This document shows, one piece after another, positions 38,334 through 56,023 of a stretch of 64,000 bases of DNA (position 1 is the stretch's first letter; every line of letters begins with the position of its first letter). The stretch is from sequence record OQ555404.1, one strand, 5' to 3'. The DNA comes from Escherichia phage vB_EcoP_HC-25922. The notes beneath the pieces were generated by a model. The model made no database searches, was not told the origin of the DNA, and saw only the letters and a list, made by a program, of their open reading frames with translations. A program made the translations under genes and the position numbers.

Positions 38334-38549
38334 TTAGTAATGAATCTTTTTATAAATCAGGTTGCTTCCACTTTCTGTTTCAATCCCTTTCTGGATTGTA
38401 ATCTTAGAAGCACCGGTATTAGCAATTTTTAAAGCTCGTTTAAAGCGGCGAGCCTCTCTCCGTGTTGTGTATGAGGAGAAGCTAGGGATTGTACTATCAA
38501 AATTAAACCACTTAACTACCCAAAAAGTAATCCAAGGTTTCTTTTCCAT
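38334..38549 (-). CDS. small protein, TRQEAR...YY family paralog 1
   Basis: TRREARRFKR...IYKKIHY shared with 40415-40630 and 40630-40842. Confidence 0.4.
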   Translation of the reverse strand: MEKKPWITFWVVKWFNFDSTIPSFSSYTTRREARRFKRALKIANTGASKITIQKGIETESGSNLIYKKIHY

Positions 38550-38550
38550 A

Positions 38551-38826
38551 TTAAATACCTTTCAGAGCTGTATCTAAAAACGCACGGAGGTTTGATTCAG
38601 TTTGCATACCGGACAAGCTGTAGTGAGCACCACTGTTCATGTTAGGAACCACAAAGGCTGGGATACTGCGAACACCATATTCAATGGCTCGCTCTCGACC
38701 ATCACCTTCAGAGATATTTACTTCTTCAACTTCTACGTTGTAATCAGCTACAACTTTCTTAAACACAGGAGCCATAGCTGCACATGGAGCACAGGAATTA
38801 CTATAAAACTTAATTACTTTACTCAT
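38551..38826 (-). CDS. thioredoxin/glutaredoxin-like protein
   Basis: CAPC active-site motif in thioredoxin-fold context; start set at MSKVIKFY. Confidence 0.55.
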   Translation of the reverse strand: MSKVIKFYSNSCAPCAAMAPVFKKVVADYNVEVEEVNISEGDGRERAIEYGVRSIPAFVVPNMNSGAHYSLSGMQTESNLRAFLDTALKGI

Positions 38827-39016: not shown

Positions 39017-39202
39017 TTATAGCATACAAAGAATAATAACAAGAGGTAGTGTTATAGCAAAATGTACCAGAACAACACTACCCAGCTTGATAGCTTTAAC
39101 ATCCTCTTCTGCTGGGTTTTCTTTAATTGCTAAATTTCGAGCTTTATATATAACAGTACCAACTATTAACGACCACACGGCCCACACAATCAGTGAAATC
39201 AT
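39017..39202 (-). CDS. small membrane protein
   Basis: 61 aa with two hydrophobic segments. Confidence 0.3.
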   Translation of the reverse strand: MISLIVWAVWSLIVGTVIYKARNLAIKENPAEEDVKAIKLGSVVLVHFAITLPLVIILCML

Positions 39203-39455
39203 ATCAAACCCTCATGCAGTCAACAGGTGGAGAAGGAAAGGAATGACAACAGAGAAGACTACCAGAGCAATGCTGCCATGTTTAATGGGTTTAGCGTCAT
39301 TCGGGTTCTCTTTAAGCATCTGTTTCTGAGCTACATAAACGATACCGCCAACAAAAAATTGCCCATACAGACCATACGATTGCTGAAAACATACTCATAT
39401 CCTTATAAAGAAGTTCGCCCCACCTCTTGAACAAAGAGACAGGGCGGAGGTTTGA

Positions 39456-40031
39456 TTAGTAAGACACATCACCACTGGAGTGGGACATGTTGCTCTTGAC
39501 GAAGTAACAGAACTTGCCAAGACCTTCATTAATTTCTTGAAGCATACTCTGGTCCACTGGATAGGTGCACAAGTCTGAATCAAACTCATCCATCTTCTCA
39601 ATGATACACATAAGAGTCATGCACATGTCGGAAAGCATACCGTCCATGTCAAGATCAGCGTTACCTTCTCGGAACCAAGCATGACCTAAATAATTACTAG
39701 CAGTAGCATCCACTTTAACACAATGAAAGCGCATACGCTCTGCTATTCGGTCGCCTGCCTCACGAGCATAATCTTCTAGTTCATCGAACATACCATGAAC
39801 ACCTTGGAAACCAGCTCCAGAGACGTTCCAGTGGTAGTTCTTTGCTTTGATGTGTAGAAGTTCAAGGTTAGCTTGCACACCACACAAGATGTGTTCTAAA
39901 CTGTTACCGCTAATCAGTTTATTCATTCCCTCAAGACGAGAGATAGAAGAGTCAGTAGTAGAGAATGGGTTGCTAGAACCCACTCGTGTTAGTTCTGGTA
40001 AGTCGAAGACATTATTATGCATTAGGTGCAT
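39456..40031 (-). CDS. Dps/ferritin-like protein
   Basis: AKNYHWNVSGAGFQGVHGMFDELEDYAREAGDRIAERM parallels the Dps ferroxidase-site helices. Confidence 0.55.
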   Translation of the reverse strand: MHLMHNNVFDLPELTRVGSSNPFSTTDSSISRLEGMNKLISGNSLEHILCGVQANLELLHIKAKNYHWNVSGAGFQGVHGMFDELEDYAREAGDRIAERMRFHCVKVDATASNYLGHAWFREGNADLDMDGMLSDMCMTLMCIIEKMDEFDSDLCTYPVDQSMLQEINEGLGKFCYFVKSNMSHSSGDVSY

Positions 40032-40362
40032 CCCCTTCTAAGTTAGTTGAATTAGCTACATTACGAGCAATGTTATCCATGACCTGCTGTGTAATAACAA
40101 TACAATTCTGAGGGTCTACTGATTTAGAACGCCCCATCTCAGGGTCATAGACTTTGACTCGCTTGGCTGTTGAGCCAGTAACTTGCAACACTTTGAGAAG
40201 ATAGCCTTGGTTTCCAATAGACCATGCAACAACATCACGATTCTTGATATAACGACCAAGCATGTCACGATGATAGAACTGCTGCATAACTTTAGCTTTG
40301 CTAATCTCTTCAGATGGCGGGGCCACTTTACTCAAATCTAACATAACTCTCTCCTGTTTCAT
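40015..40362 (-). CDS. hypothetical protein
   Basis: 115 aa ORF. Confidence 0.4.
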   Translation of the reverse strand: MKQERVMLDLSKVAPPSEEISKAKVMQQFYHRDMLGRYIKNRDVVAWSIGNQGYLLKVLQVTGSTAKRVKVYDPEMGRSKSVDPQNCIVITQQVMDNIARNVANSTNLEGDAPNA

Positions 40363-40414: not shown

Positions 40415-40630
40415 CTAGTAATAAACCTTGCTGGATATGAATCCAGCACTGTTATGGATATTTTCAATCCAACGATGAATCTCCACCTTTTCAGCGATTC
40501 CTAAAGCTTTTGTAGCTTTTATAGTTTTCTTAGCAAGACGAGCCTCTTGTCTTGTGTTGAATAATTGAATACAATCACCACCAAGAGCTTTGTTAGCCCA
40601 TTTAGTACGAACTGCCCATAATTTATCCAT
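40415..40630 (-). CDS. small protein, TRQEAR family paralog 2
   Basis: NTRQEARLAKK...FISSKVYY. Confidence 0.4.
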   Translation of the reverse strand: MDKLWAVRTKWANKALGGDCIQLFNTRQEARLAKKTIKATKALGIAEKVEIHRWIENIHNSAGFISSKVYY

Positions 40631-40842
40631 TAGTAATGTACCTTTCCGCTGATATAGAAACGACCTGATTTAAAGTCTTGAGCTTTGTGGATAGTGATCT
40701 TATTAATTGTGCTTTCACAACTTAATAAGAACTTCTTATGAGCGCGAGCTTCTTGACGGGTATTCCTAATACCCATTGACTCTGTACCACTGCTCCAGTG
40801 AATACGAACTACCCAACGTCTTTTCATTGTTCCAAACTCCAT
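40630..40842 (-). CDS. small protein, TRQEAR family paralog 3
   Basis: NTRQEARAHKK...FYISGKVHY. Confidence 0.4.
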   Translation of the reverse strand: MEFGTMKRRWVVRIHWSSGTESMGIRNTRQEARAHKKFLLSCESTINKITIHKAQDFKSGRFYISGKVHY

Positions 40843-47145: not shown

Positions 47146-48381
47146 TTACAGAGTTACTGCTACTTCGCTACCTTCAACATTTACAGACTCTAACTTGCGA
47201 GGGTTATGAATCTGGACTGGATTGACCGGAACGTTCCAACCACTGCGGTAGAAGTTACGACCATCACAGAACAGGATGACATTGGCAGACATTGCATTCG
47301 GTTGCAGGTTGTTGTGGACATGACGGATATTTGCAATCCAGTAGCCACGAGACAAAGTGTAGCCAGTAGGTGCATTACGAATAGTTTGAGTATTCATCTG
47401 ACCTTCCAGTTGCATTTCTTCAGGAACCACATCAACTGAATCAATCGGCTGTGCTACTTGTCCTTCCAGTGCAAAGTTTTCATCATCAGCACTTTCAATA
47501 TCATCCACTAACTCACCGTCTCCATCTTCAATCGGAGTCTGGTAAACCACTTTATACTGAGGAGTATAGAGAGGGTTCTGAGCTTTAACAAACTCAAGAA
47601 TGTTATGACGGTAGGTATCCAGAGTTGTACCAGTCAGGCCCGGTGCTGTATTAACTTCCAGTACCCACGCTTCTTGACCTTTGGTGATAATATCAACTGC
47701 ACCGAAATCCAGACCCATTGATTCAACAGCTTTCACTGCATTGATCAGAGAGGCGTCATTCGGAGCATCTGTGAAGGAGCTTGAGTAAACCCAGCCAGTG
47801 TGGTGATTACGAATATCTTCACGATAGTTAGGGTCTTCGCGATAACCATTGCGACGAATCTTCTTCTGAACATAGGTGATTACACCTTTGAACACATGGA
47901 CACGCCACTCACGACGTGGGCCTTGAATGCCTTTAGTGTACAGTTCAGCTCGACCAAGACCATCACCCGGTTCTACAACAACAATGCCCGAACCAGAGTG
48001 ACCAGTCAGCTCATGGCGCTCATACACAATATTACCAGTGTTTGACCACTCTTGAGCAGTCTCTTGAACATCTGTGTATTCCACAGTTTTAACACCTGCT
48101 TGGTCCATCACGCTGAAAGCACGACGTTTGTTCGCTGCCATATGTAAGGCTGCGGTACGGTTAAGGACGGTTGCAGAACCAAAGAATGATTCAGGATAGC
48201 GACGGTTCCCGTAGTTAACAACCACATCACCTTCACGAGAACGCCAGCGGCTATTCTCTGAAAGAAGACCCATCACGTTAGCATTGATGCGTTCATCACG
48301 GATAGTATCACTGATAGCAGATACTAGAGCGTTAACAGAATCAGACGGGCCATACGGAAGAACACGGATACGAGTAGTCAT
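47146..48381 (-). CDS. ATP-grasp ligase (RimK/glutathione synthetase-like)
   Basis: GHSGSGIVVV and FGAVDIITKGQEAWVLEVNTAPG match ATP-grasp nucleotide-binding motifs. Confidence 0.6.
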   Translation of the reverse strand: MTTRIRVLPYGPSDSVNALVSAISDTIRDERINANVMGLLSENSRWRSREGDVVVNYGNRRYPESFFGSATVLNRTAALHMAANKRRAFSVMDQAGVKTVEYTDVQETAQEWSNTGNIVYERHELTGHSGSGIVVVEPGDGLGRAELYTKGIQGPRREWRVHVFKGVITYVQKKIRRNGYREDPNYREDIRNHHTGWVYSSSFTDAPNDASLINAVKAVESMGLDFGAVDIITKGQEAWVLEVNTAPGLTGTTLDTYRHNILEFVKAQNPLYTPQYKVVYQTPIEDGDGELVDDIESADDENFALEGQVAQPIDSVDVVPEEMQLEGQMNTQTIRNAPTGYTLSRGYWIANIRHVHNNLQPNAMSANVILFCDGRNFYRSGWNVPVNPVQIHNPRKLESVNVEGSEVAVTL

Positions 48382-48383
48382 TT

Positions 48384-48614
48384 TTAGATACCTTTTAGTT
48401 TAAGAATTTCGTTACGACAGGATTGAATTTTAGCTTCGATTGCCCAATACTCAGCGAACATTTCGTCTTCTTGGGCATCACTTGGAGAGTCGATTAAGTT
48501 AAAAGCAAACGGATACAGCTTTCGCTGCTCCGTTACCAGTTGTTGAAGTCGGAGTTGTTGATACTCCAGCATTGTCAGGTGAGGCTTAGCTCCCTTGCTT
48601 GACATGAGGCTCAA
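48384..48614 (-). CDS. hypothetical small protein
   Basis: 76 aa ORF between ATP-grasp and GATase genes. Confidence 0.3.
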   Translation of the reverse strand: MSLMSSKGAKPHLTMLEYQQLRLQQLVTEQRKLYPFAFNLIDSPSDAQEDEMFAEYWAIEAKIQSCRNEILKLKGI

Positions 48615-48819
48615 CTTTAATCCCCTTCATTTTAACATAGTCAGCCAACACGTTATTGATAACGGTTGGAAAAGGGATTTCTACTGGAGAGTCAACCAGC
48701 TTCCCAATACCTTCTTGCATCCACTTCTGGATTGCTCGGAGGTTATCACATCCTGTGCTTGTCATCGGAATACGGCGGGTAGTTACCACGTTATCCAACA
48801 TCAGTTTACGAACTTCCAT
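48586..48819 (-). CDS. hypothetical small protein
   Basis: 77 aa ORF overlapping the previous one by 29 nt. Confidence 0.3.
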   Translation of the reverse strand: MEVRKLMLDNVVTTRRIPMTSTGCDNLRAIQKWMQEGIGKLVDSPVEIPFPTVINNVLADYVKMKGIKVEPHVKQGS

Positions 48820-48830
48820 AACTATACCTC

Positions 48831-50864
48831 TTAGTGTTTACCTTTACAGTAATCTGAATTACAGATCACCCTGTTTTCTTTGTTCAGTGAGCAAGTTTCT
48901 GCATCACGCCACGGAATTTGTTTATAACAGACTGCACAAAACCCAATTGAAGTCCAGAGGGCTTTTGTAAACTCAGCTGTTCGTTGTCCATCGTAACTGA
49001 CAACTGTTTTTCGGAGAGAGGTTGACTTTTCTGGAAATGTCTCCGCTTTCTCAGCGGGTACCTCCTTTGGGGCATTCTTTGGACCATAAACAGAGATGGC
49101 ATAAGTATCACCACCACGTTTTTCCAAATACGAATTAGGAACATCTGCAAGTGTGATGTCCCCTGAACGTTTTGCTGAGCTGACCATTACAATCATACGG
49201 CTAAGCATACGTTCATCAACACGAACAGCTACTTCAGGACGACGTGGGTTGGTTGTGTCTACTGCTTTAGTCCAAATATAACCTTCAGATAGAGTAACAT
49301 TCTTTACTTTATCTTTGATTTCTTTGGAGCAGATATAACAAACGTCTTCACCACGAAGTTTACTCATTTCGTTGTCAAACTCGAAATCAGTCTTGACTTC
49401 ACCACAGATAGCACATACACCCAAAGGCACATCTTCTTCCTCTTCAGAGGTTTTAGATAACGCTTCGAAGCATTCTGGATGCCAGTATGCCTGATAAGCA
49501 AACACAGCCTTACGAGCATCTTTCCAGTCAATGTGCTTATCACAACCACCACAGTCACCATGAGAGTGAGATTCCCAGAACTTACGAGTGACTTCTACAC
49601 CATTCTTAGTGATGAAGGAGTCCTCTGCATCAAAAGGGATATCATCATCAAAATCAGCAGTAGTGCTTTGAGGCTCCTTATCTGTAGCATCAACAAACAG
49701 CCCTGAAGTTAGTACGAGGCGAATCATACTGTCCACTTCGGAGATACAAGCAATCGTCCCGCGATATACTACCTTTGGGTTTTCAAGAGCCTTAAGATAT
49801 TCATCTTTGGCTACGTTGTGAACATCCCCTTCGACATACTCTTGAGCTTTATCATCGTAGATGTAACCAACCATCTTACCACGATCTGTGTTGTTATAAG
49901 CATGGAACTCGTGAGGAATAATATCCACACGACCATCACGACGATAAGGAAGACCACGATCGGCAGCCAGTTTGTTCTGGTCTTCAATCGCTTTACGACG
50001 ACGAATGTCTCCGCTTGTCACGCCGGGCTTGTCGTCTTTGTTTCCGTAAATGTCGCTTGTGCTGCTGCTTGATTTGTTTGTCTGTTGGTTCTGATAAAGA
50101 GAGGAGTTCGAGTAATAGCCGCCCCAGCGACTCGTTACCGTAAAAACCGGAAGCGTGTGCTCCACCTCTTGAACCAGAGTCATACGACTGTTAGACACAT
50201 CAAAGATATACTCAGTTCCCACTTTACATTCGAAGTGGTCATTGATACGGTTCTTATGGGACTTAGAACGCTCTAAAATCCACATAAGCATAGCTTCTTC
50301 AGAAGCTCCAAACCAATCCAAACCACAGCGGGCTAGGTGGAAAGGACGCTCATCATTACGGATAATGTGAAGTGTGTTGTCTTTAGCATCATGCCAAATC
50401 AAAGTGAATGCACCATCCAGTTTTTGGATAGTCTCTGCTGCTCCAATGGTGTTAATTGAGTGGCAGATGTTTTCACTATCAACTTCGAAACGCTTACTGT
50501 CAGGAAGGAGATCTTGATCTAACAGGGTTCCATTATGAACCAGAGTAATATCCCCGTGAGTAAATGGGTGAGCATTTCGAGCATTGACAGCCCCACGAGT
50601 GGCATGTCGGCTGTGACCAACAATCCACGAAGGAGGAACTACGTAGTTCGTAAGCCCTTTGGTAATATTTGTATATTCTGTCTGGAGCATAAAAGCATAA
50701 GAAGGAAGAGCTTCTTTATAAGAGAAGACTTGCTTTTCACCTTTACGCTGACCAAACACACCAGTTGAGTGCTGTCCACGGAAAACACCAGCATACAGAA
50801 GTTGGTTGAAAATGTCCAAATCTGCTGAGGTCATGTTGCCGCCAGCTAATACGATACCACAAAT
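48831..50864 (-). CDS. class II (Ntn) glutamine amidotransferase domain protein with C-terminal Cys-rich region; probable AUU start
   Basis: NAHPF...HNG GATase II motif; extending in frame to ATT at 50862-50864 gives MCGIVLAGG with AGGTGG SD 8 nt upstream; multiple CxxC pairs in the C-terminal third. Confidence 0.55.
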   Translation of the reverse strand: MCGIVLAGGNMTSADLDIFNQLLYAGVFRGQHSTGVFGQRKGEKQVFSYKEALPSYAFMLQTEYTNITKGLTNYVVPPSWIVGHSRHATRGAVNARNAHPFTHGDITLVHNGTLLDQDLLPDSKRFEVDSENICHSINTIGAAETIQKLDGAFTLIWHDAKDNTLHIIRNDERPFHLARCGLDWFGASEEAMLMWILERSKSHKNRINDHFECKVGTEYIFDVSNSRMTLVQEVEHTLPVFTVTSRWGGYYSNSSLYQNQQTNKSSSSTSDIYGNKDDKPGVTSGDIRRRKAIEDQNKLAADRGLPYRRDGRVDIIPHEFHAYNNTDRGKMVGYIYDDKAQEYVEGDVHNVAKDEYLKALENPKVVYRGTIACISEVDSMIRLVLTSGLFVDATDKEPQSTTADFDDDIPFDAEDSFITKNGVEVTRKFWESHSHGDCGGCDKHIDWKDARKAVFAYQAYWHPECFEALSKTSEEEEDVPLGVCAICGEVKTDFEFDNEMSKLRGEDVCYICSKEIKDKVKNVTLSEGYIWTKAVDTTNPRRPEVAVRVDERMLSRMIVMVSSAKRSGDITLADVPNSYLEKRGGDTYAISVYGPKNAPKEVPAEKAETFPEKSTSLRKTVVSYDGQRTAEFTKALWTSIGFCAVCYKQIPWRDAETCSLNKENRVICNSDYCKGKH

Positions 50865-50941
50865 TTTCTAATCCACCTGAAGGGTAAACCCTTTCATCTA
50901 ATTAACCTTTAAATGCGCCCTGTATAAGAGCGCCCGTTGTG

Positions 50942-52042
50942 TTACAGCAGTCGTTCTAATTGCATTTCCAGATGGTCTGGAATATAACCAGTGACGTTAT
51001 CATCACTGCTACCTGATTCACGCATCAATGCAAACATGTGACGAATTTCACGAACCGTTGCGATTCGAGTGCTTTCAATCTGAGGGGTGTAGTAGGTCAT
51101 GATCTCTTCGTAGACACTGTTGGCATTACCGCGCACATATCCCAAGAAACCATAGAAGTCATTCATATCACGTAAGTTGATAAGGACTTCACCATCAGGG
51201 CCAGTCTGTTGCACACGAACACGACCAACCAAAGTTACAGATTGCTCACGACAGAAGAGAATATCACGAGCAAGACGATACCCTTCAGTGAGATCACTGT
51301 CTCTTGGAGTATAGTCTAGGGGTAGATGTTGAATCATAGGAGCGAAGCGCAGCTCATTCAACTTCTCAACATAAGCTTCATTGTCTAAATCTGCATATTC
51401 AACAGCCAGTTTCTTGAGAACCAAGAAGCGGTTGACCAGATTCAGAAGTTGGCTCTTTTTCCACTTCGGCTCTGAGATACGGAACTCAACAGAACCAAAT
51501 TGAGATAGAGGCAAAAGATTAAGGGAGGTATATTTATCCCAGCTATTAACAAGAGAGTGGAAGAAAGCTTCCCCGTCTCGGTTGAACGCTGACGAAGCAT
51601 TCATAACTTGTGCTTGAACGACAGCAAAAGCTGGACAGAAGTTGCTACGATAGCGATGGTATCCAGAACATTTGAACATCATCTTTTCATAGAACGTCCA
51701 TCCAAGAATAACTTTCTTAAGGATATTACTATCAGCGTCACGCATATCCATATGAACGTGAGTGGAGCAGCGCCAAGTTCCCTCGGCTCCAGAATCCTGT
51801 ACTGCTTCACTCAGATTGTTAATAGCACGAAGTAATTCTTCACCGTTGTAAGGTCGTGCACATACTAATTCACAACCATCACGAAGAGAGCCATCTTCAG
51901 TACAAACCCACATATCAGCGTCAATGTCAGTTGTACCTTCGACTTCTAACTCAATACCAACACCACACTGAAAAGCAATACTTGGATGCGGTTCAGATAA
52001 GCGAGGGTTACGGTATCCAAAAACTTGTGCTACGGTTGTCAT
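50942..52042 (-). CDS. amidoligase-family protein
   Basis: GVGIELEVEG and STHVHMDM motifs resemble the phage amidoligase family. Confidence 0.5.
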   Translation of the reverse strand: MTTVAQVFGYRNPRLSEPHPSIAFQCGVGIELEVEGTTDIDADMWVCTEDGSLRDGCELVCARPYNGEELLRAINNLSEAVQDSGAEGTWRCSTHVHMDMRDADSNILKKVILGWTFYEKMMFKCSGYHRYRSNFCPAFAVVQAQVMNASSAFNRDGEAFFHSLVNSWDKYTSLNLLPLSQFGSVEFRISEPKWKKSQLLNLVNRFLVLKKLAVEYADLDNEAYVEKLNELRFAPMIQHLPLDYTPRDSDLTEGYRLARDILFCREQSVTLVGRVRVQQTGPDGEVLINLRDMNDFYGFLGYVRGNANSVYEEIMTYYTPQIESTRIATVREIRHMFALMRESGSSDDNVTGYIPDHLEMQLERLL

Positions 52043-52665
52043 AATGATTCCACCAACTCTACATTATATGATGACAGGTCTGAAGAAATATGCTTGAACT
52101 TCTCCAGAAGGTTTAAAGATTGACGACCATTGTCGCCATAACCAGCTTCAAGAAGCACGTTTCCAACGTAAGCCCCTTTGTAATAAACTTTTCCATCGAC
52201 AGGATTGATATAGATGAAACGAGTAACCAACCCTTCAAACTCTGGATTAAACAGGTTGTACACCAAATCACCCGGAATCGAACGTCCGAGAGAAGGTGGA
52301 GTACCACGAAGTTTATTCCCCATCAAGCCTTTAGCTCGCTGACGAACAGGGTTGATATGGGTCCAGCTCACCATGTTATTGCCATGCTGAAGGTATCCTA
52401 CATCTGGAGACTCCAGAATGAGGCTGTGATCAAACACTGGGATATTACTAACAATCTGACGTTCAAACTGACCTTCGGAGTTTTTAGTCCAGCGCTCCGC
52501 CTCAAACACTAAAGACATTTCAGCGTCGTGTGAGTAGTCGTCGATATCAAAGTTACCTTGCTGACGAACATCAAGCACATATAGAGGGAGGTTTTTACCA
52601 TCAGGTGATCGCTGAGCAATCCATGTTCCACAATAATAGTGTTGAAAATCTCTTAACAAGCTCAC
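52039..52665 (-). CDS. hypothetical protein
   Basis: 208 aa ORF overlapping the amidoligase start by 4 nt. Confidence 0.4.
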   Translation of the reverse strand: MSLLRDFQHYYCGTWIAQRSPDGKNLPLYVLDVRQQGNFDIDDYSHDAEMSLVFEAERWTKNSEGQFERQIVSNIPVFDHSLILESPDVGYLQHGNNMVSWTHINPVRQRAKGLMGNKLRGTPPSLGRSIPGDLVYNLFNPEFEGLVTRFIYINPVDGKVYYKGAYVGNVLLEAGYGDNGRQSLNLLEKFKHISSDLSSYNVELVESL

Positions 52666-52674
52666 AATATCACC

Positions 52675-53481
52675 TTATACAATCTGGAGTTTAGAGGAGA
52701 ATTTATCCGCTTCTTTAACATCGTTACTGTTGATGATGTTGTGAAGCTTTTCAATTGGAAGGCGAGAGTGAAGTGACATCAATACTTCCATATCACAGCC
52801 TTGAACAACCTTATCAACTTGCTCATAAACAAACTTGCGGGTTGACTTCTCGCCAATCCAGAAGTTAGAAAGAGAACGATATTCAATACCGTAATCTTTG
52901 TAGCGAATGGCAGAAGCCTTTCCGTATAACTCTTTACGACGAGTATCTTTATCCATGATCACAGCTGGCAAGGACAGGAAGTAATCACACAACACACCCA
53001 ACATCATTTGAGTCTGACGACTAATTTCCAGCGTACCAGTGACGCCAAGGTGAACATGACCACCAGCAGTACGCAGACCTTTGTCTGTCGCTACTGGAGA
53101 TGGGTTTTTCTGACCAGTGAAGGCGTTGAAATCAGGAGTACAACCAAATACAAAGGCTGACGGATGGAAAGATTCCATCTCTTCTGAAGTGAACACATGA
53201 GAGCTAATCCCAAGTGCTGCCTCCATGCCACGTTCATTGAGAACTTTGTTAGTCAGATCAATACCACGCTGAATGTTATCATTAAACGCTTCAAACCCTT
53301 TCTGTGGGTTAATATCGAACTCGGCCAGAACGTTGTCTTCTTGAAGACGAACATCAGGGGCCAGATCAATTTTGTTGTCTTTAGAGCAGCCCAGCTTACC
53401 AGCCACAGAGGTGATAATACCAGAAGCAGTACGAACAAACATTTCAGGGTCAGAACCAATAAGGAAAGCACGCTTAGTCAT
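52675..53481 (-). CDS. second amidoligase-like protein
   Basis: FLIGSDPEMFV and GGHVHLG parallel the motifs of 50942-52042; start set at MTKRAF. Confidence 0.35.
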   Translation of the reverse strand: MTKRAFLIGSDPEMFVRTASGIITSVAGKLGCSKDNKIDLAPDVRLQEDNVLAEFDINPQKGFEAFNDNIQRGIDLTNKVLNERGMEAALGISSHVFTSEEMESFHPSAFVFGCTPDFNAFTGQKNPSPVATDKGLRTAGGHVHLGVTGTLEISRQTQMMLGVLCDYFLSLPAVIMDKDTRRKELYGKASAIRYKDYGIEYRSLSNFWIGEKSTRKFVYEQVDKVVQGCDMEVLMSLHSRLPIEKLHNIINSNDVKEADKFSSKLQIV

Positions 53482-54424
53482 TGTAATACTCCACGAGTTC
53501 ATCAAAAAGGGAAACAACACGAGCACCAGCTTCTTCTGGTGTCATTGAGGAAGGTACTGCTTGCATCAGACGTTCGATAAAACTTCGAACAGTAATTCTG
53601 TCCATACGCTGATCTAATACTTCTCGCTTGTGACCTGCACAAGTTGACCAGAGACGTAACCACTCACTCATACTCTCATAATGGTCAGGGTCTTGGTCAC
53701 GACGACGTGCCATACGACGGAGAACTCCATCATTATGGTTTCGTACATAACCATCTCGGTTGTCATCAACACCGAATACATTCTGAACCCATACGTTTTC
53801 AGAAAATTCATCAGTGGTGCAAATTAATGGCAGAAATGCAATTGCACTCATGTCGCCATCAAAATAAGTCGCTGCTGACTCATCGGTTGAGCCTACGTCA
53901 TTACTATAACACCAGCGACCAAAGAAGTTACGACTTAAACCAGCTAAGCGTAGAGCTAAACCGATTCGTTGTCGCTTAAGCAACTCTTCCTTGTCTTGTA
54001 CGCCTTCCTGAAGGAACTCCATTCCATTAAAATCACCATCCAAATAGCTACGGATGGTCATTAGTCCAGTAAACACCTTGTCTGCTGGATGGTTTCGAAG
54101 GTTCACGGCAATGGAGTTCACCGAAGTGACAGAGAACATATCTTTATAGCAAGACATTGAGTTAAAAATATCTGTTGCTTCAACTAAAGCTCTTTCGATA
54201 TCTTTAGCTGGCACGCCATAAAAATTGTGAGGCCAGAAGTTAATAACTTCAATTTCTGAAGTTCTATCACGAAGGCTTGTTCGGTTACGACTTTCACCGT
54301 TAATGTCTGTAACAGAATACATGTGCATACAGTTAAAAGTACCAAAGCAAGCTCTTCCTTTGAACACTGACTCACCGAAATCCTCTGCCGATGTTACCGG
54401 AGCAATCGATGCGGAGATTGACAT
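53474..54424 (-). CDS. hypothetical protein
   Basis: 316 aa ORF in the amidoligase cluster. Confidence 0.4.
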   Translation of the reverse strand: MSISASIAPVTSAEDFGESVFKGRACFGTFNCMHMYSVTDINGESRNRTSLRDRTSEIEVINFWPHNFYGVPAKDIERALVEATDIFNSMSCYKDMFSVTSVNSIAVNLRNHPADKVFTGLMTIRSYLDGDFNGMEFLQEGVQDKEELLKRQRIGLALRLAGLSRNFFGRWCYSNDVGSTDESAATYFDGDMSAIAFLPLICTTDEFSENVWVQNVFGVDDNRDGYVRNHNDGVLRRMARRRDQDPDHYESMSEWLRLWSTCAGHKREVLDQRMDRITVRSFIERLMQAVPSSMTPEEAGARVVSLFDELVEYYND

Positions 54425-54432
54425 ATTCGCCT

Positions 54433-55650
54433 CTATTTATTAAAGAATAGTTTTTCCATAATGGTTTCCCACTCTTCTGAGGGGAGGGTTGAGAACCCGT
54501 TTCCGTGAAGCCTGTTTGTCATGCAACTAATAATATTGTACATGTTGTAGCTTCGGGTGGATTCTGTTCCATTGTTCCAGTTATAACCGAAAACAATTTT
54601 ATCGAAGGAGGTTTTATCCGTAGTTACTTCTCGGATAAACTCAACCAAGAGCGATTTCTCTGTGATGACCGCACGTTCACCATCTGGCAGATTGCAATAC
54701 TGAGGAAGAAGGATTGGTAAGAACATCGAATTGTTCACTCGACAATCACGAACACCTTCACTGCGATAGATTAGGCTTGAGAAGTCTTCATCACGCAGGT
54801 GTCCTTCACCTTCAGTGTATTCACACTGTCGCCACTTGGTCTGGCGAGGCTCAATCATTGTACTACCAACGCCTACTGTATACAGAGACGCTTGGAAAAT
54901 ACATGAATCGTAATCATTCCCTGTTAAAGCAACTTGCTCGTTGCCGAACACATCCACTGAAGAGTTAATCAGTCGGCTGAATGCAAGAGAGGCTAAAGGG
55001 GACCAGCCTTTCTTATACATCTTGTTCAGCATTTCATACACAGCAGATTTTTCATCATCTGTATAGAATGTACGATTCAGCATCAGATAGAACAGAGCGC
55101 GATCAGCAGGACAACCATCAGTACAAACACCCATGAATCCTACTTCATGCCATACCAGACATGAGTCAGAATCTTTATCCATGAATGCTTCAAAGGCTTC
55201 CATTACAGCCCTGTCAGTAACATCAGGACGGTTGTTTTCTTCTGCCCATGTTTCTACATGAGAAGGAGGACGAGGGTCTCCATTCTCCACCCCTTCGCGG
55301 AAATATTGAGTGGTAATAGGCTTTTTATCACCATAACGTTTTACACCATAAGCGGGAAGGTGTGTACCAGAGTTCCAGATGTACTTAATTTCGGACATAG
55401 GCATCATGTTTTCGAGAACGTTCTCTTCAGCAGTGCCTTGACGAACCATCATATTTTCACTCCACACCTTAATGCGGATATTCCAGCCGTAGTTGCTGTC
55501 ATACGTGTTATAATAATCAGGATCACCATCTTCATCTTCATCATAATCACCACCCTGATAGTAACCTGCTTTCAGGAAACCATAACAAGGAGGCCAAACA
55601 GTTACAACGTCTTCTGATTCTTTCCAGCTTTGAAGTGTTACAGGGAACAT
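54433..55650 (-). CDS. hypothetical protein
   Basis: start set at MFPVTLQ with AAAGAGG RBS, just after the upstream stop. Confidence 0.4.
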   Translation of the reverse strand: MFPVTLQSWKESEDVVTVWPPCYGFLKAGYYQGGDYDEDEDGDPDYYNTYDSNYGWNIRIKVWSENMMVRQGTAEENVLENMMPMSEIKYIWNSGTHLPAYGVKRYGDKKPITTQYFREGVENGDPRPPSHVETWAEENNRPDVTDRAVMEAFEAFMDKDSDSCLVWHEVGFMGVCTDGCPADRALFYLMLNRTFYTDDEKSAVYEMLNKMYKKGWSPLASLAFSRLINSSVDVFGNEQVALTGNDYDSCIFQASLYTVGVGSTMIEPRQTKWRQCEYTEGEGHLRDEDFSSLIYRSEGVRDCRVNNSMFLPILLPQYCNLPDGERAVITEKSLLVEFIREVTTDKTSFDKIVFGYNWNNGTESTRSYNMYNIISCMTNRLHGNGFSTLPSEEWETIMEKLFFNK

Positions 55651-55660
55651 TTTTACCTCT

Positions 55661-56023
55661 TTACTCTGATACCAGAAGGCCCAGAGATTTGCGAATGTAG
55701 TCAATACTACGGAAGTTTCGATAGTTCTCTTGGAAGCGCATCTTTTCAAATTCAGCTTCCTGAAGTTCTAACTCTGCCGCTTTATATCCCGATAAAGCTA
55801 AACTCACCACATCCTGAGGCAAGACATTACGACGGCGAATAAGATATTTATTCGCTTTTAGTTTACCTTGTGCACGAGCCATTTTGGCCTTTGCCGCCTT
55901 GATACCATGAGAAATCCAAAGCAGTTGCTGTTTCAGATCTTCCTCATCCATACCACCTAAGTCATTTGCTACTTTATGAAGCGTAGACAGGTTCACATGG
56001 CCTTTAATGGGGCGTAGGTTCAT
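55661..56023 (-). CDS. hypothetical protein (helical, basic)
   Basis: 120 aa ORF; its ATG overlaps the stop of the small gene 56020-56187. Confidence 0.4.
   Translation of the reverse strand: MNLRPIKGHVNLSTLHKVANDLGGMDEEDLKQQLLWISHGIKAAKAKMARAQGKLKANKYLIRRRNVLPQDVVSLALSGYKAAELELQEAEFEKMRFQENYRNFRSIDYIRKSLGLLVSE

What the first reader, a model, noticed from the sequence alone, without database searches (positions are those of the whole stretch)
39456..40031. Phage-encoded Dps/ferritin-like protein
Seen in sequence: HWNVSGAGFQGVHGMFDELEDYAREAGDRIAERM parallels the di-iron site helices of Dps. Established knowledge: Dps proteins sequester iron and coat DNA under oxidative stress. Inference: the phage may protect replicating DNA or manipulate host iron/redox state; the adjacent thioredoxin gene fits that theme.
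Basis: partly seen in the sequence, partly recalled or inferred. Interest (0 to 1): 0.45.

Follow-up and report, generated by a model that had tools for sequence, protein, structure and literature searches.

The report
Known phage Dps mini-ferritin gene
The gene is a real Dps-type iron-detoxifying "mini-ferritin" carried by a well-known group of long-headed E. coli phages; it is already annotated and mentioned in papers, so the finding is correct but ordinary, and what the protein does for the phage has never been tested.

Summary
The ORF at 39456..40031 lies on the minus strand; the likely true start is the ATG at 40022, giving 188 aa. It encodes a Dps-family protein:
- Pfam Ferritin matches above its cut-off.
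- A profile of the phage family matches solved Dps full length (E=2.5e-27).
- The AlphaFold core has pLDDT above 90, and the 50 best Foldseek PDB matches listed are Dps or Dps-like.

All five ligands of the inter-subunit ferroxidase centre sit at exact Dps spacing (H64, H76, D80 | D91, E95). Four are invariant in the 24-sequence family alignment; D80 is near-invariant.

The window is a phiEco32/Kuravirus-like (Gordonclarkvirinae) E. coli phage. Identical proteins are deposited (Bas86/Bas87, "DNA binding protein"). The Dps domain was published for SU10 CDS67 in 2014 and for Privateer in 2021, and its function has not been tested.

The protein is very acidic (net -14) and has no Lys-rich tail, so DNA coating is not supported. 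The most likely role is removal of Fe2+ and H2O2 during replication.

The thioredoxin gene is nearby but not adjacent.

New details:
- a clade-specific N-terminal extension and a C-terminal tail ending in Tyr;
- a conserved, translationally coupled basic partner gene (PHROG 10984);
- constant placement among dNTP-synthesis genes.

Low interest; already known.

The parts
39456..40022 (-). Dps-family mini-ferritin CDS (188 aa plus stop). An alternative in-frame ATG at 40031 would give the 191-aa ORF of the finding.
   Evidence: ORF list. Pfam Ferritin 32.9 bits against a cut-off of 24.5. PHROG 3636, E=1e-52. Family profile against PDB Dps, E=2.5e-27, full length. AF2 core pLDDT above 90. The 50 best Foldseek matches listed are Dps or Dps-like. 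All homologs start MHNN. RefSeq annotates a 567-bp CDS.
40032..40038 (-). Shine-Dalgarno-like GAAGGGG, 9 nt upstream of the ATG at 40022 and directly abutting the ATG at 40031.
   Evidence: Sequence read directly.
39888..40022 (-). Clade-specific N-terminal extension (residues 1-45: MHNNVFDLP...S-x-x-R-L-E/D-x-M). It is absent from the short forms of Privateer/SE131-type phages and from cellular Dps. It is net negative.
   Evidence: Alignment A1. Charge. AF2 pLDDT 40-57 with one weak helix at 26-38. dN/dS 0.15 against SU10.
39738..39833 (-). Ferroxidase-centre segment on helices A and B. Codons: H64 (39831-39833), W65, H76 (39795-39797), D80 (39783-39785), D91 (39750-39752), E95 (39738-39740).
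   Evidence: H64, W65, H76, D91 and E95 are invariant columns in 24 family members; D80 is near-invariant. They align to H51/H63/D67/D78/E82 of E. coli Dps and to the same columns of solved Dps. Codons checked.
39459..39497 (-). Clade-specific C-terminal tail (residues 176-188, SNMSHSSGDVSY) ending in a conserved Tyr.
   Evidence: Alignment A1: 13 of the 15 long-form sequences end in Tyr; the short forms lack the tail. The 13 residues are identical in SU10 although synonymous sites across the gene are saturated. pLDDT below 50.
40015..40344 (-). Upstream partner gene X (109 aa from M7; the ORF extends to 40362). Function unknown. It is basic and its stop overlaps the Dps start by 8 nt, which suggests translational coupling.
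   Evidence: PHROG 10984, E=2e-62, no Pfam hit. Homologs lie directly upstream of Dps in Privateer (38% identity, E=6e-16) and Aeromonas LAh_8 (36%, E=5e-18), and 1.3 kb away in SE131. pI 9.1-9.3.
39416..39446 (-). GC-rich hairpin (13 bp stem, -17.8 kcal/mol) starting 10 nt after the Dps stop codon. It may be a terminator or a 3' mRNA stabiliser. The T-tract is weak.
   Evidence: Terminator scan. Fold z=-2.0. The stem is conserved in Bas87 and SU10 with a different loop.
38551..38826 (-). Thioredoxin gene of the same middle-gene module. It is near but not adjacent.
   Evidence: PF00085, E=4e-12. Annotated 'thioredoxin domain' in Bas87/UKE3. Conserved with Dps in all five C3 phages compared in PMC4281155.

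Best explanation
The gene encodes a Dps-family mini-ferritin made with the phage's middle (replication and nucleotide-metabolism) genes.

Shown here:
- It has the Dps four-helix bundle with the short BC helix.
- It keeps all five ligands of the Dps ferroxidase centre, plus the adjacent Trp. That centre is built between two subunits of a two-fold dimer.
- It is under strong purifying selection.
- It is conserved across the prolate-headed (C3) podophages.

Inferred from what is established for Dps:
- Subunits assemble into a hollow 12-mer.
- Each dimer interface binds two Fe2+, oxidises them (preferentially with H2O2) and stores Fe3+ inside the shell.
- This removes both Fenton reactants while phage DNA is replicated.
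- The phage brings its own copy because a virulent phage that takes over host transcription cannot rely on host induction of dps. This last step is the weakest inference.

The protein is strongly acidic and lacks the Lys/Arg-rich tail that DNA-binding Dps proteins use. Protection is therefore most likely chemical (iron and peroxide removal), not physical coating of DNA.
For: Family and fold:
- Pfam above cut-off; PHROG 3636.
- Family profile against solved Dps, full length, E=2.5e-27.
- AF2 core pLDDT above 90 with helices 42-66, 72-99, 108-113 (BC), 126-146 and 155-177.
- The 50 best Foldseek PDB matches listed are Dps or Dps-like; rmsd 1.2-1.4 A for the MsDps2 chains.

Ligands:
- H64, W65, H76, D91 and E95 are invariant and D80 is near-invariant in 24 sequences.
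- They align to H51/H63/D67/D78/E82 of E. coli Dps.
- The two half-sites come from different subunits (established knowledge), so their joint conservation implies that the dimer interface is kept.

Selection: dN/dS about 0.05 against SU10, with synonymous sites saturated.

Conservation: tblastn finds the protein in 133 phage records, including 97 at 80% identity or more among the Gordonclarkvirinae. It is conserved in all five C3 phages compared in PMC4281155.

Expression: classed as a middle gene and detected by mass spectrometry with 35.8% coverage in SU10.

Context: it sits among dCTP deaminase, ThyX, thioredoxin, polymerase and primase-helicase genes in four genera.

No basic tail: pI 4.8, net -14, N-extension with 1 K and 2 R.

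The same antioxidant rationale has been proposed for other phage Dps (PMC8008677). Host dps is among the most strongly induced genes during infection by another lytic phage (PMC7354516).
Against: - No biochemical or genetic test exists for any phage Dps.
- Oligomerisation could not be modelled with these tools.
- A single-sequence Pfam match covers only residues 59-102. The C-terminal half is divergent and needs the family profile to align.
- The protein is far below the NCBIfam equivalog cut-offs, so it is not an ortholog of host Dps.
- The clade-specific N- and C-terminal peptides and the coupled partner gene X are not explained by a plain antioxidant role.
- Detection in CsCl-purified Privateer virions hints at something beyond a cytoplasmic enzyme.
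Confidence: 0.6

Rival explanations
1. Iron buffer or donor for nucleotide synthesis. The Dps shell manages iron (and protects oxygen- or peroxide-sensitive cofactors) for the enzymes that make dNTPs during the replication burst. It would not be there to protect DNA as such.
For: The gene always sits in the dNTP-synthesis block:
- window: dCTP deaminase ... X-Dps ... thioredoxin, ThyX;
- Privateer: dCTP deaminase, thioredoxin, X, Dps, then a small protein annotated 'ribonucleotide reductase' for its similarity to NrdD;
- SE131: ThyX, Dps, then a small protein matching the first ~96 positions of the NrdD profile, where NrdD carries its ATP-cone;
- Aeromonas LAh_8: NrdD, PhoH, NrdG (an Fe-S radical-SAM activase), X, Dps, then an NrdR-like ATP-cone protein.
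Against: This window's phage has no annotated ribonucleotide reductase or other obvious iron enzyme. Synteny with replication genes is equally expected for a DNA-protecting role. Release of iron from Dps to client enzymes is not an established general function.
Confidence: 0.15
2. DNA-binding or DNA-compacting protein, as most database records name it. The 12-mer would bind phage or host DNA directly, or through the basic partner protein X, to shield it or organise it.
For: PHROG 3636 and many GenBank records carry the name 'DNA binding protein'. Some cellular Dps proteins do bind DNA. A conserved basic small protein (pI about 9.2) is translationally coupled to Dps in three genera and could supply the missing positive charge.
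Against: The name is inherited from the family and was not tested. The protein has net charge -14 per subunit, and its termini are acidic or neutral with no Lys/Arg cluster. Dps proteins without mobile basic tails or a basic surface generally do not bind DNA (established knowledge). X has no recognisable DNA-binding domain, and its AF2 model failed with pLDDT 45.
Confidence: 0.12
3. Virion-associated cargo. Dps would be packed into, or bound to, the prolate head (comparable to ferritin-like cargo in encapsulins), with the clade-specific terminal peptides as targeting signals.
For: The homolog was detected by mass spectrometry in CsCl-equilibrium-purified Privateer virions and in SU10 preparations with 6 peptides. 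BFVD holds uncultured-phage proteins in which a Dps fold is part of proteins named 'prohead protease'.
Against: The gene lies in the middle replication module, not the late structural module. The SU10 preparation also contained DNA polymerase, thioredoxin, PhoH and a sigma factor, which indicates carry-over. The SU10 cryo-EM study names gp20-24 as the head-internal ejection proteins and does not mention Dps; it analysed only the major gel bands. Co-purification of a large multimer, denser still if iron-loaded, with phage in CsCl is my own suggestion for the Privateer result. No peptide similar to the N- or C-terminal extensions occurs in other proteins of the window.
Confidence: 0.08

Closest known systems
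Dps-domain proteins of C3-morphotype podophages: SU10 CDS67 (AIF71819, 'DNA-binding protein, DPS domain'), Bas86/Bas87 'DNA binding protein', Privateer QIN94861
   Same: Same gene. It is 100% identical to the Bas86/Bas87 proteins, 82-84% identical to the SU10 group and about 41% identical to Privateer. It has the same genomic position and the same upstream partner gene. The Dps domain, conservation in all five C3 phages compared and mass-spectrometry detection are already published.
   Different: Nothing material. The RefSeq record of the closest genome (NC_070982) and several GenBank records mislabel it 'integrase'.
Cellular Dps 12-mers: M. smegmatis Dps2 (2z90/4m35), B. anthracis Dlp-2 (1jig), B. 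subtilis MrgA (2chp), L. innocua Dps (1qgh), E. coli Dps (1dps)
   Same: Four-helix bundle plus BC helix. HW...H...D | D...E ferroxidase ligands with identical spacing. AER motif. Full-length profile alignment.
   Different: Only about 23-26% identity. It is far below the NCBIfam equivalog cut-off for E. coli Dps (34.7 bits against 114), so it is not a recent capture from the host. It has an extra 45-residue acidic N-terminal extension and a 13-residue C-terminal tail ending in Tyr, and no Lys-rich DNA-binding tail. It has 6 Cys per subunit, and up to 10 in close homologs.
Dps-like genes reported in other phages (Lactobacillus myophages; gut 'Gratiaviridae' and 36 other gut phage genomes; Bacillus phage G gp346)
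   Same: Phage-borne Dps fold, proposed to limit oxidative or iron damage during infection.
   Different: These are different lineages, seen here only through fold similarity at 13-22% identity. The C3-podophage clade is a small separate sequence group: only 2 representative clusters at E<=1e-30 and 12 at E<=1e-10.
Classical ferritin / bacterioferritin (24-mers)
   Same: Ferritin-like four-helix bundle; same Pfam family PF00210.
   Different: There is no conserved intra-subunit ExxH di-iron motif. The one ExxH (ELLH) is ELLY in most homologs. The ligands follow the inter-subunit Dps pattern, a BC helix is predicted, and all the best structural matches listed are Dps or Dps-like.

Membership tests
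Dps (mini-ferritin) family | Ferritin-like four-helix bundle with an extra short BC helix | tested here: met
   AF2 model: helices 42-66, 72-99, 108-113 (BC), 126-146 and 155-177; core pLDDT above 90. Foldseek PDB: the 50 best matches listed are Dps or Dps-like; for the closest (MsDps2) target TM 0.78-0.90 and rmsd 1.2-1.4 A.
Dps (mini-ferritin) family | Significant sequence match to the family model or to solved members | tested here: met
   Pfam PF00210, 32.9 bits against a cut-off of 24.5, covering residues 59-102 only. Family profile against Dlp-2, E=2.5e-27, over 3-142 of 146 residues.
Dps (mini-ferritin) family | Inter-subunit ferroxidase ligands: His, His, Asp/Glu on one subunit and Asp, Glu on the other, with a neighbouring Trp | tested here: met
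   H64, W65, H76, D91 and E95 are invariant in 24 family members; D80 is Asp in 23 of 24. They align with H51/W52/H63/D67/D78/E82 of E. coli Dps (E. coli sequence and ligand numbering from my own knowledge).
Dps (mini-ferritin) family | Assembly into a hollow dodecamer with 23 symmetry | not testable with these tools
   No multimer prediction was available. There is only indirect support: conservation of both half-sites of an inter-subunit metal centre.
Dps (mini-ferritin) family | Fe2+ oxidation by H2O2/O2 and iron mineral storage | not testable with these tools
   This needs biochemistry. No published test was found.
DNA-binding subset of Dps (E. coli Dps type) | Mobile Lys/Arg-rich N- or C-terminal tail, or a basic surface | tested here: not met
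   pI 4.8, net -14. The N-extension has 1 K and 2 R against 5 D/E. The C-tail has 1 K. All homologs have pI 4.5-5.8.
Ortholog (equivalog) of host E. coli Dps, NCBIfam NF006975 | Score above the curated equivalog cut-off | tested here: not met
   34.7 bits against a cut-off of 114.
Classical ferritin / bacterioferritin | Intra-subunit di-iron site with conserved ExxH motifs | tested here: not met
   No conserved ExxH in the family alignment.
Integrase (as labelled in RefSeq NC_070982 and several GenBank records) | Any tyrosine- or serine-recombinase domain | tested here: not met
   Ferritin is the only Pfam hit above its cut-off. The fold is Dps. The label is an annotation error.

The most novel reading that the evidence does not exclude
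The Gordonclarkvirinae-type Dps may not be a free cytoplasmic antioxidant. It may be one half of a phage-specific two-protein device. The acidic 12-mer would be tethered to replicating phage DNA or the replisome, or carried into the virion. The tether would be its clade-specific terminal peptides (N-terminal MHNNVFDLP...SxxRLExM; C-terminal tail ending in an almost invariant Tyr) and the conserved, translationally coupled basic partner X (PHROG 10984). The C-terminal tail recalls the aromatic-ended tails by which T7 gp2.5 and gp4 dock on the polymerase; that comparison rests on my own knowledge and was not verified.
Probability: 0.12. Interest if true: 0.55.

Novelty: already known. Interest (0 to 1): 0.2.

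Why it matters
As found, it matters little. The gene is a correctly recognised member of a well-known protein family. It sits in a phage group whose genomes are public, and the Dps domain was noted in print in 2014 and 2021.

Its modest value lies in three things:
- It shows that the ferroxidase site is intact while the usual DNA-binding tail is missing. The widespread label "DNA binding protein", and the wrong label "integrase", should therefore read "Dps-family ferroxidase".
- It points out a conserved partner gene and a constant placement among dNTP-synthesis genes.
- Nobody has tested why virulent phages carry a mini-ferritin. The BASEL phages Bas86 and Bas87 encode the identical protein and grow on engineered E. 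coli K-12, so the question can be answered by experiment.

Tried and rejected
- **Classical ferritin or bacterioferritin.** Rejected: the ligands follow the Dps pattern, a BC helix is predicted and there is no conserved ExxH.
- **Recent capture of host dps.** Rejected: 34.7 bits against the 114-bit equivalog cut-off. The closest solved relatives are actinobacterial and Firmicute Dps.
- **"Integrase" annotation.** Rejected.
- **Structure of partner protein X.** A PDB profile search for X gave only spurious additive hits to a designed WD40 repeat protein. Pfam gave nothing.
- **A shared targeting peptide.** tblastn and motif scans of the Dps N-extension and C-tail against all six frames of the window found nothing significant. 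The best hits had E>1, apart from the self-matches.
- **Literature.** Kuravirus + ferritin gave 0 papers. Dps + prohead protease gave irrelevant papers. T7 gp2.5 C-terminal Phe + thioredoxin-binding domain gave 0 papers, so that analogy rests on my own knowledge. The BASEL paper does not mention Dps. The SU10 cryo-EM paper does not mention Dps.
- **dN/dS.** Only the window against SU10 was computed, because the other loci were not found under separate files at that time. dS is saturated, so the ratio is approximate.
- **Promoters.** The promoter scan found no more sites than in shuffled sequence, so it is uninformative.

Full report
**What is there**

The finding's coordinates match an ORF on the minus strand, 39456..40031, 191 aa. 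The quoted peptide is residues 67-100.

Two in-frame ATGs open the ORF. The second one (40022) is the better start for three reasons:
- It has an AAGGGG Shine-Dalgarno 9 nt upstream, whereas the first ATG abuts that motif.
- All 38 database homologs start MHNN or close variants.
- RefSeq annotates a 567-bp CDS overlapping the upstream gene by 8 nt.

I use the 188-aa numbering below.

**Where the window comes from**

A 6-kb stretch around the gene is 98.7% identical to Escherichia phage vB_EcoP-101114UKE3 (Suseptimavirus, Gordonclarkvirinae) and 92-97% identical to many phiEco32/Kuravirus-like phages. These are prolate-headed (C3) podoviruses of E. coli.

By tblastn the protein is 100% identical in Bas86 and Bas87 and 82-84% identical in the SU10 group. 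It is found in 133 phage records in all. These include more distant C3-type phages of Proteus, Salmonella, Cronobacter and Aeromonas at 30-43% identity.

**Is it a Dps?**

Yes, on every test I could run:
- Pfam Ferritin (PF00210) is above its gathering cut-off (32.9 bits against 24.5), although it covers only residues 59-102.
- PHROG 3636 matches at 1e-52.
- phmmer against PDB finds dozens of Dps chains, best 7e-10.
- A profile built from 24 family members (A1) aligns end to end with solved Dps: B. anthracis Dlp-2, E=2.5e-27, residues 3-142 of 146.
- An AlphaFold2 model has pLDDT above 90 for residues 41-180. It shows the four long helices plus the short BC helix typical of Dps.
- Foldseek against the PDB lists Dps or Dps-like proteins for all 50 best matches. 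For the closest, M. smegmatis Dps2, the rmsd is 1.2-1.4 A over about 137 residues and the target-normalised TM-score is 0.78-0.90.

**Metal ligands**

- H64, W65, H76, D91 and E95 are invariant in the 24-sequence alignment.
- D80 is Asp in 23 of 24.
- They align column for column with H51, W52, H63, D67, D78 and E82 of E. coli Dps. The E. coli sequence and ligand numbers come from my own knowledge. The same region aligns.

In Dps the two half-sites (His, His, Asp and Asp, Glu) belong to different subunits of a two-fold dimer. This is established knowledge. Conservation of both halves therefore argues that the dimer interface, and with it the assembly, is kept. The 12-mer itself could not be modelled here.

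**Selection and distribution**

Against the SU10 ortholog, synonymous sites are saturated (dS above 2) while dN is 0.12, so dN/dS is about 0.05. The N-terminal extension is looser (0.15). The 13-residue C-terminal tail is identical.

An exhaustive search of 1.84 billion cluster representatives finds only 2 clusters at E<=1e-30 and 12 at E<=1e-10, then 554 ordinary Dps at E<=1e-3. This is a small, divergent phage clade inside the Dps family.

It is not a recent copy of the host gene. It scores 34.7 bits against the 114-bit equivalog cut-off for E. coli Dps.

**What differs from textbook Dps**

- The long form found in Gordonclarkvirinae and their metagenomic relatives has two additions. One is a 45-residue N-terminal extension with the conserved pieces MHNNVFDLP and S-x-x-R-L-(E/D)-x-M. 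The other is a C-terminal tail that ends in Tyr in 13 of the 15 long-form sequences. Both are missing from the short forms of Privateer/SE131-type phages, and both are modelled with low confidence.
- The protein is very acidic: pI 4.8, net -14 per subunit. The extension is net negative with one Lys and two Arg. Cellular Dps proteins that bind DNA do so through mobile basic tails or a basic surface (established knowledge). The label "DNA binding protein" carried by PHROG 3636 and most records is therefore inherited, not supported. The label "integrase" in RefSeq NC_070982 and several GenBank records is simply wrong.
- There are six Cys per subunit, and up to ten in close homologs. I have no explanation for this.

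**Neighbourhood**

The gene lies in the middle-gene block that also holds primase-helicase, the polymerase exonuclease subunit, a nucleotidyltransferase, dCTP deaminase, thioredoxin, ThyX, a ligase-like gene and PhoH.

Thioredoxin (38551..38826) is about 630 bp downstream, behind three small ORFs. It is near, not adjacent.

The placement is stable in four genera:
- SU10 has the same order.
- Privateer has dCTP deaminase, thioredoxin, X, Dps, then a small protein annotated 'ribonucleotide reductase' for its similarity to NrdD.
- SE131 has thioredoxin, X ... ThyX, Dps, then a small protein matching the first ~96 positions of the NrdD profile, where NrdD carries its ATP-cone.
- Aeromonas LAh_8 has NrdD, PhoH, NrdG, X, Dps, then an NrdR-like ATP-cone protein.

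**The partner gene X**

"X" is the gene just upstream in the window (40015..40344/40362). It belongs to PHROG 10984 and its function is unknown. It is basic (pI about 9.2). Its stop codon overlaps the Dps start by 8 nt.

Homologs at 36-38% identity sit in the same position in Privateer and LAh_8. X has no Pfam match and no real PDB match. Its AlphaFold model failed with pLDDT 45.

**The hairpin**

A conserved 13-bp GC-rich hairpin follows the Dps stop codon by 10 nt.

**What is already known**

[quoted passage not shown] It is one of the few middle genes conserved in all five C3 phages then sequenced, together with thioredoxin (CDS65) and CDS68 (= X). [quoted passage not shown]
- The Privateer paper reports the Dps homolog in CsCl-purified virions and states that its function has not been verified (PMC7881722).
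- A gut-virome study proposes that phage Dps and Mn-catalase raise tolerance to oxidative damage during infection (PMC8008677).
- The SU10 cryo-EM study names gp20-24 as the head-internal ejection proteins and does not mention Dps (PMC9509320).
- The BASEL paper does not discuss Dps.
- BFVD shows that Dps folds are scattered through many phages, including Bacillus phage G and Lactobacillus phages.

**Most likely mechanism**

*Shown:* a Dps fold with an intact ferroxidase centre, strong purifying selection, middle-gene context and no basic tail.

*Inferred:*
- The protein forms a 12-mer.
- It oxidises Fe2+ with H2O2 at the dimer interfaces and stores the iron.
- This lowers Fenton chemistry while phage DNA and dNTP pools are at their peak.
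- The phage carries its own copy because a virulent phage that redirects transcription cannot count on host induction of dps.

I put about 0.95 on family membership and about 0.6 on this functional statement.

**Rivals**

1. An iron buffer or protector for dNTP-synthesis enzymes (0.15). The constant synteny with NrdD/NrdG/ATP-cone/ThyX genes supports it. The absence of any annotated RNR in this phage weakens it.
2. A true DNA-binding role, possibly through basic X (0.12).
3. Virion cargo (0.08). Two mass-spectrometry detections and the Dps-"prohead protease" fusions in BFVD support it. Against it stand the gene's module, the obvious carry-over proteins in the SU10 preparation, and the cryo-EM study. 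Co-purification of a large multimer with phage in CsCl is my own alternative explanation for the Privateer result.

**Verdict**

The functional guess is reasonable but untested, and its DNA-coating part is not supported. The feature is already known, because identical proteins are deposited and the Dps domain is published.

The only points that go slightly beyond the record are:
- the explicit demonstration of intact ligands together with a missing basic tail;
- the clade-specific terminal peptides;
- the conserved X-Dps gene pair;
- the persistent dNTP-module context.

Interest is low (0.2).

Noticed in passing
window 39212..39392 (-): The small membrane-protein gene just downstream of Dps is the ortholog of Bas87_0062 / UKE3 gp068 (59 aa). 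It is frameshifted in the window by one extra T in a T-run (GGGCAATTTTTTGTTGG against GGGCAA-TCCTTGTTGG in Bas87). This is either a sequencing error or a real pseudogene. It is a tandem paralog of the next ORF, 39017..39202.
   Followed up: partly
window 39416..39446 (-): A 13-bp GC-rich hairpin lies 10 nt after the Dps stop codon (-17.8 kcal/mol, z=-2.0). The stem is conserved in Bas87 and SU10 while the loop differs. The T-tract is weak, so it may be a terminator or an mRNA 3' stabiliser.
   Followed up: partly
window 40015..40362 (-); L003 4639..4923; L007 3609..3962; L004 3358..3636: A conserved small basic protein of unknown function (PHROG 10984) is translationally coupled to Dps in three genera and sits next to thioredoxin in a fourth. 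It has no Pfam or PDB match, and its AF2 model failed.
   Followed up: partly
window 38334..38549, 40415..40630, 40630..40842 (all -): Three paralogous ~70-aa proteins of PHROG 4939 (unknown function) are scattered through the same module. Each has an R/K-rich 'TRQEAR' stretch and a C-terminal HY or YY.
   Followed up: no
RefSeq NC_070982.1 PQC43_gp069 and GenBank MZ234017, MZ398243, OK148440, OP293233 and others: The Dps gene is annotated 'integrase' in these records. This is an annotation error that has propagated.
   Followed up: yes
L003 5398..5694 (Privateer gp067), L004 5408..5707 (SE131 gp089), L007 4429..4701 (LAh8_123): In the distant relatives the gene right after Dps encodes a small stand-alone NrdD-like or NrdR-like protein. 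SE131 gp089 matches the first ~96 positions of the NrdD profile, where NrdD carries its ATP-cone, and LAh8_123 is annotated as ATP-cone family. That would be a nucleotide-sensing module. No counterpart follows Dps in this window.
   Followed up: partly
BFVD entries A0A6J7XDU5, A0A6J7WPK9, A0A6J7WIS1 (not in the window): Uncultured-phage proteins of 333-763 aa named 'prohead protease' contain a Dps-like fold. Other 'Dps' entries are 498-679 aa. This suggests capsid-linked Dps fusions in some phages.
   Followed up: no
window 47146..55749 (-): A block of large early or middle genes is annotated in the closest genome as aminotransferase, 'COOH.NH2 ligase' and several hypothetical proteins, with a gamma-glutamyl cyclotransferase nearby. 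It may be a small-molecule or modification pathway.
   Followed up: no
window 39456..40022 (-): The Dps is unusually Cys-rich: 6 Cys in 188 aa, up to 10 in close homologs and 0-3 in the short forms. Conserved positions lie in DMCMTLxC and GKxCYF. Unexplained.
   Followed up: no
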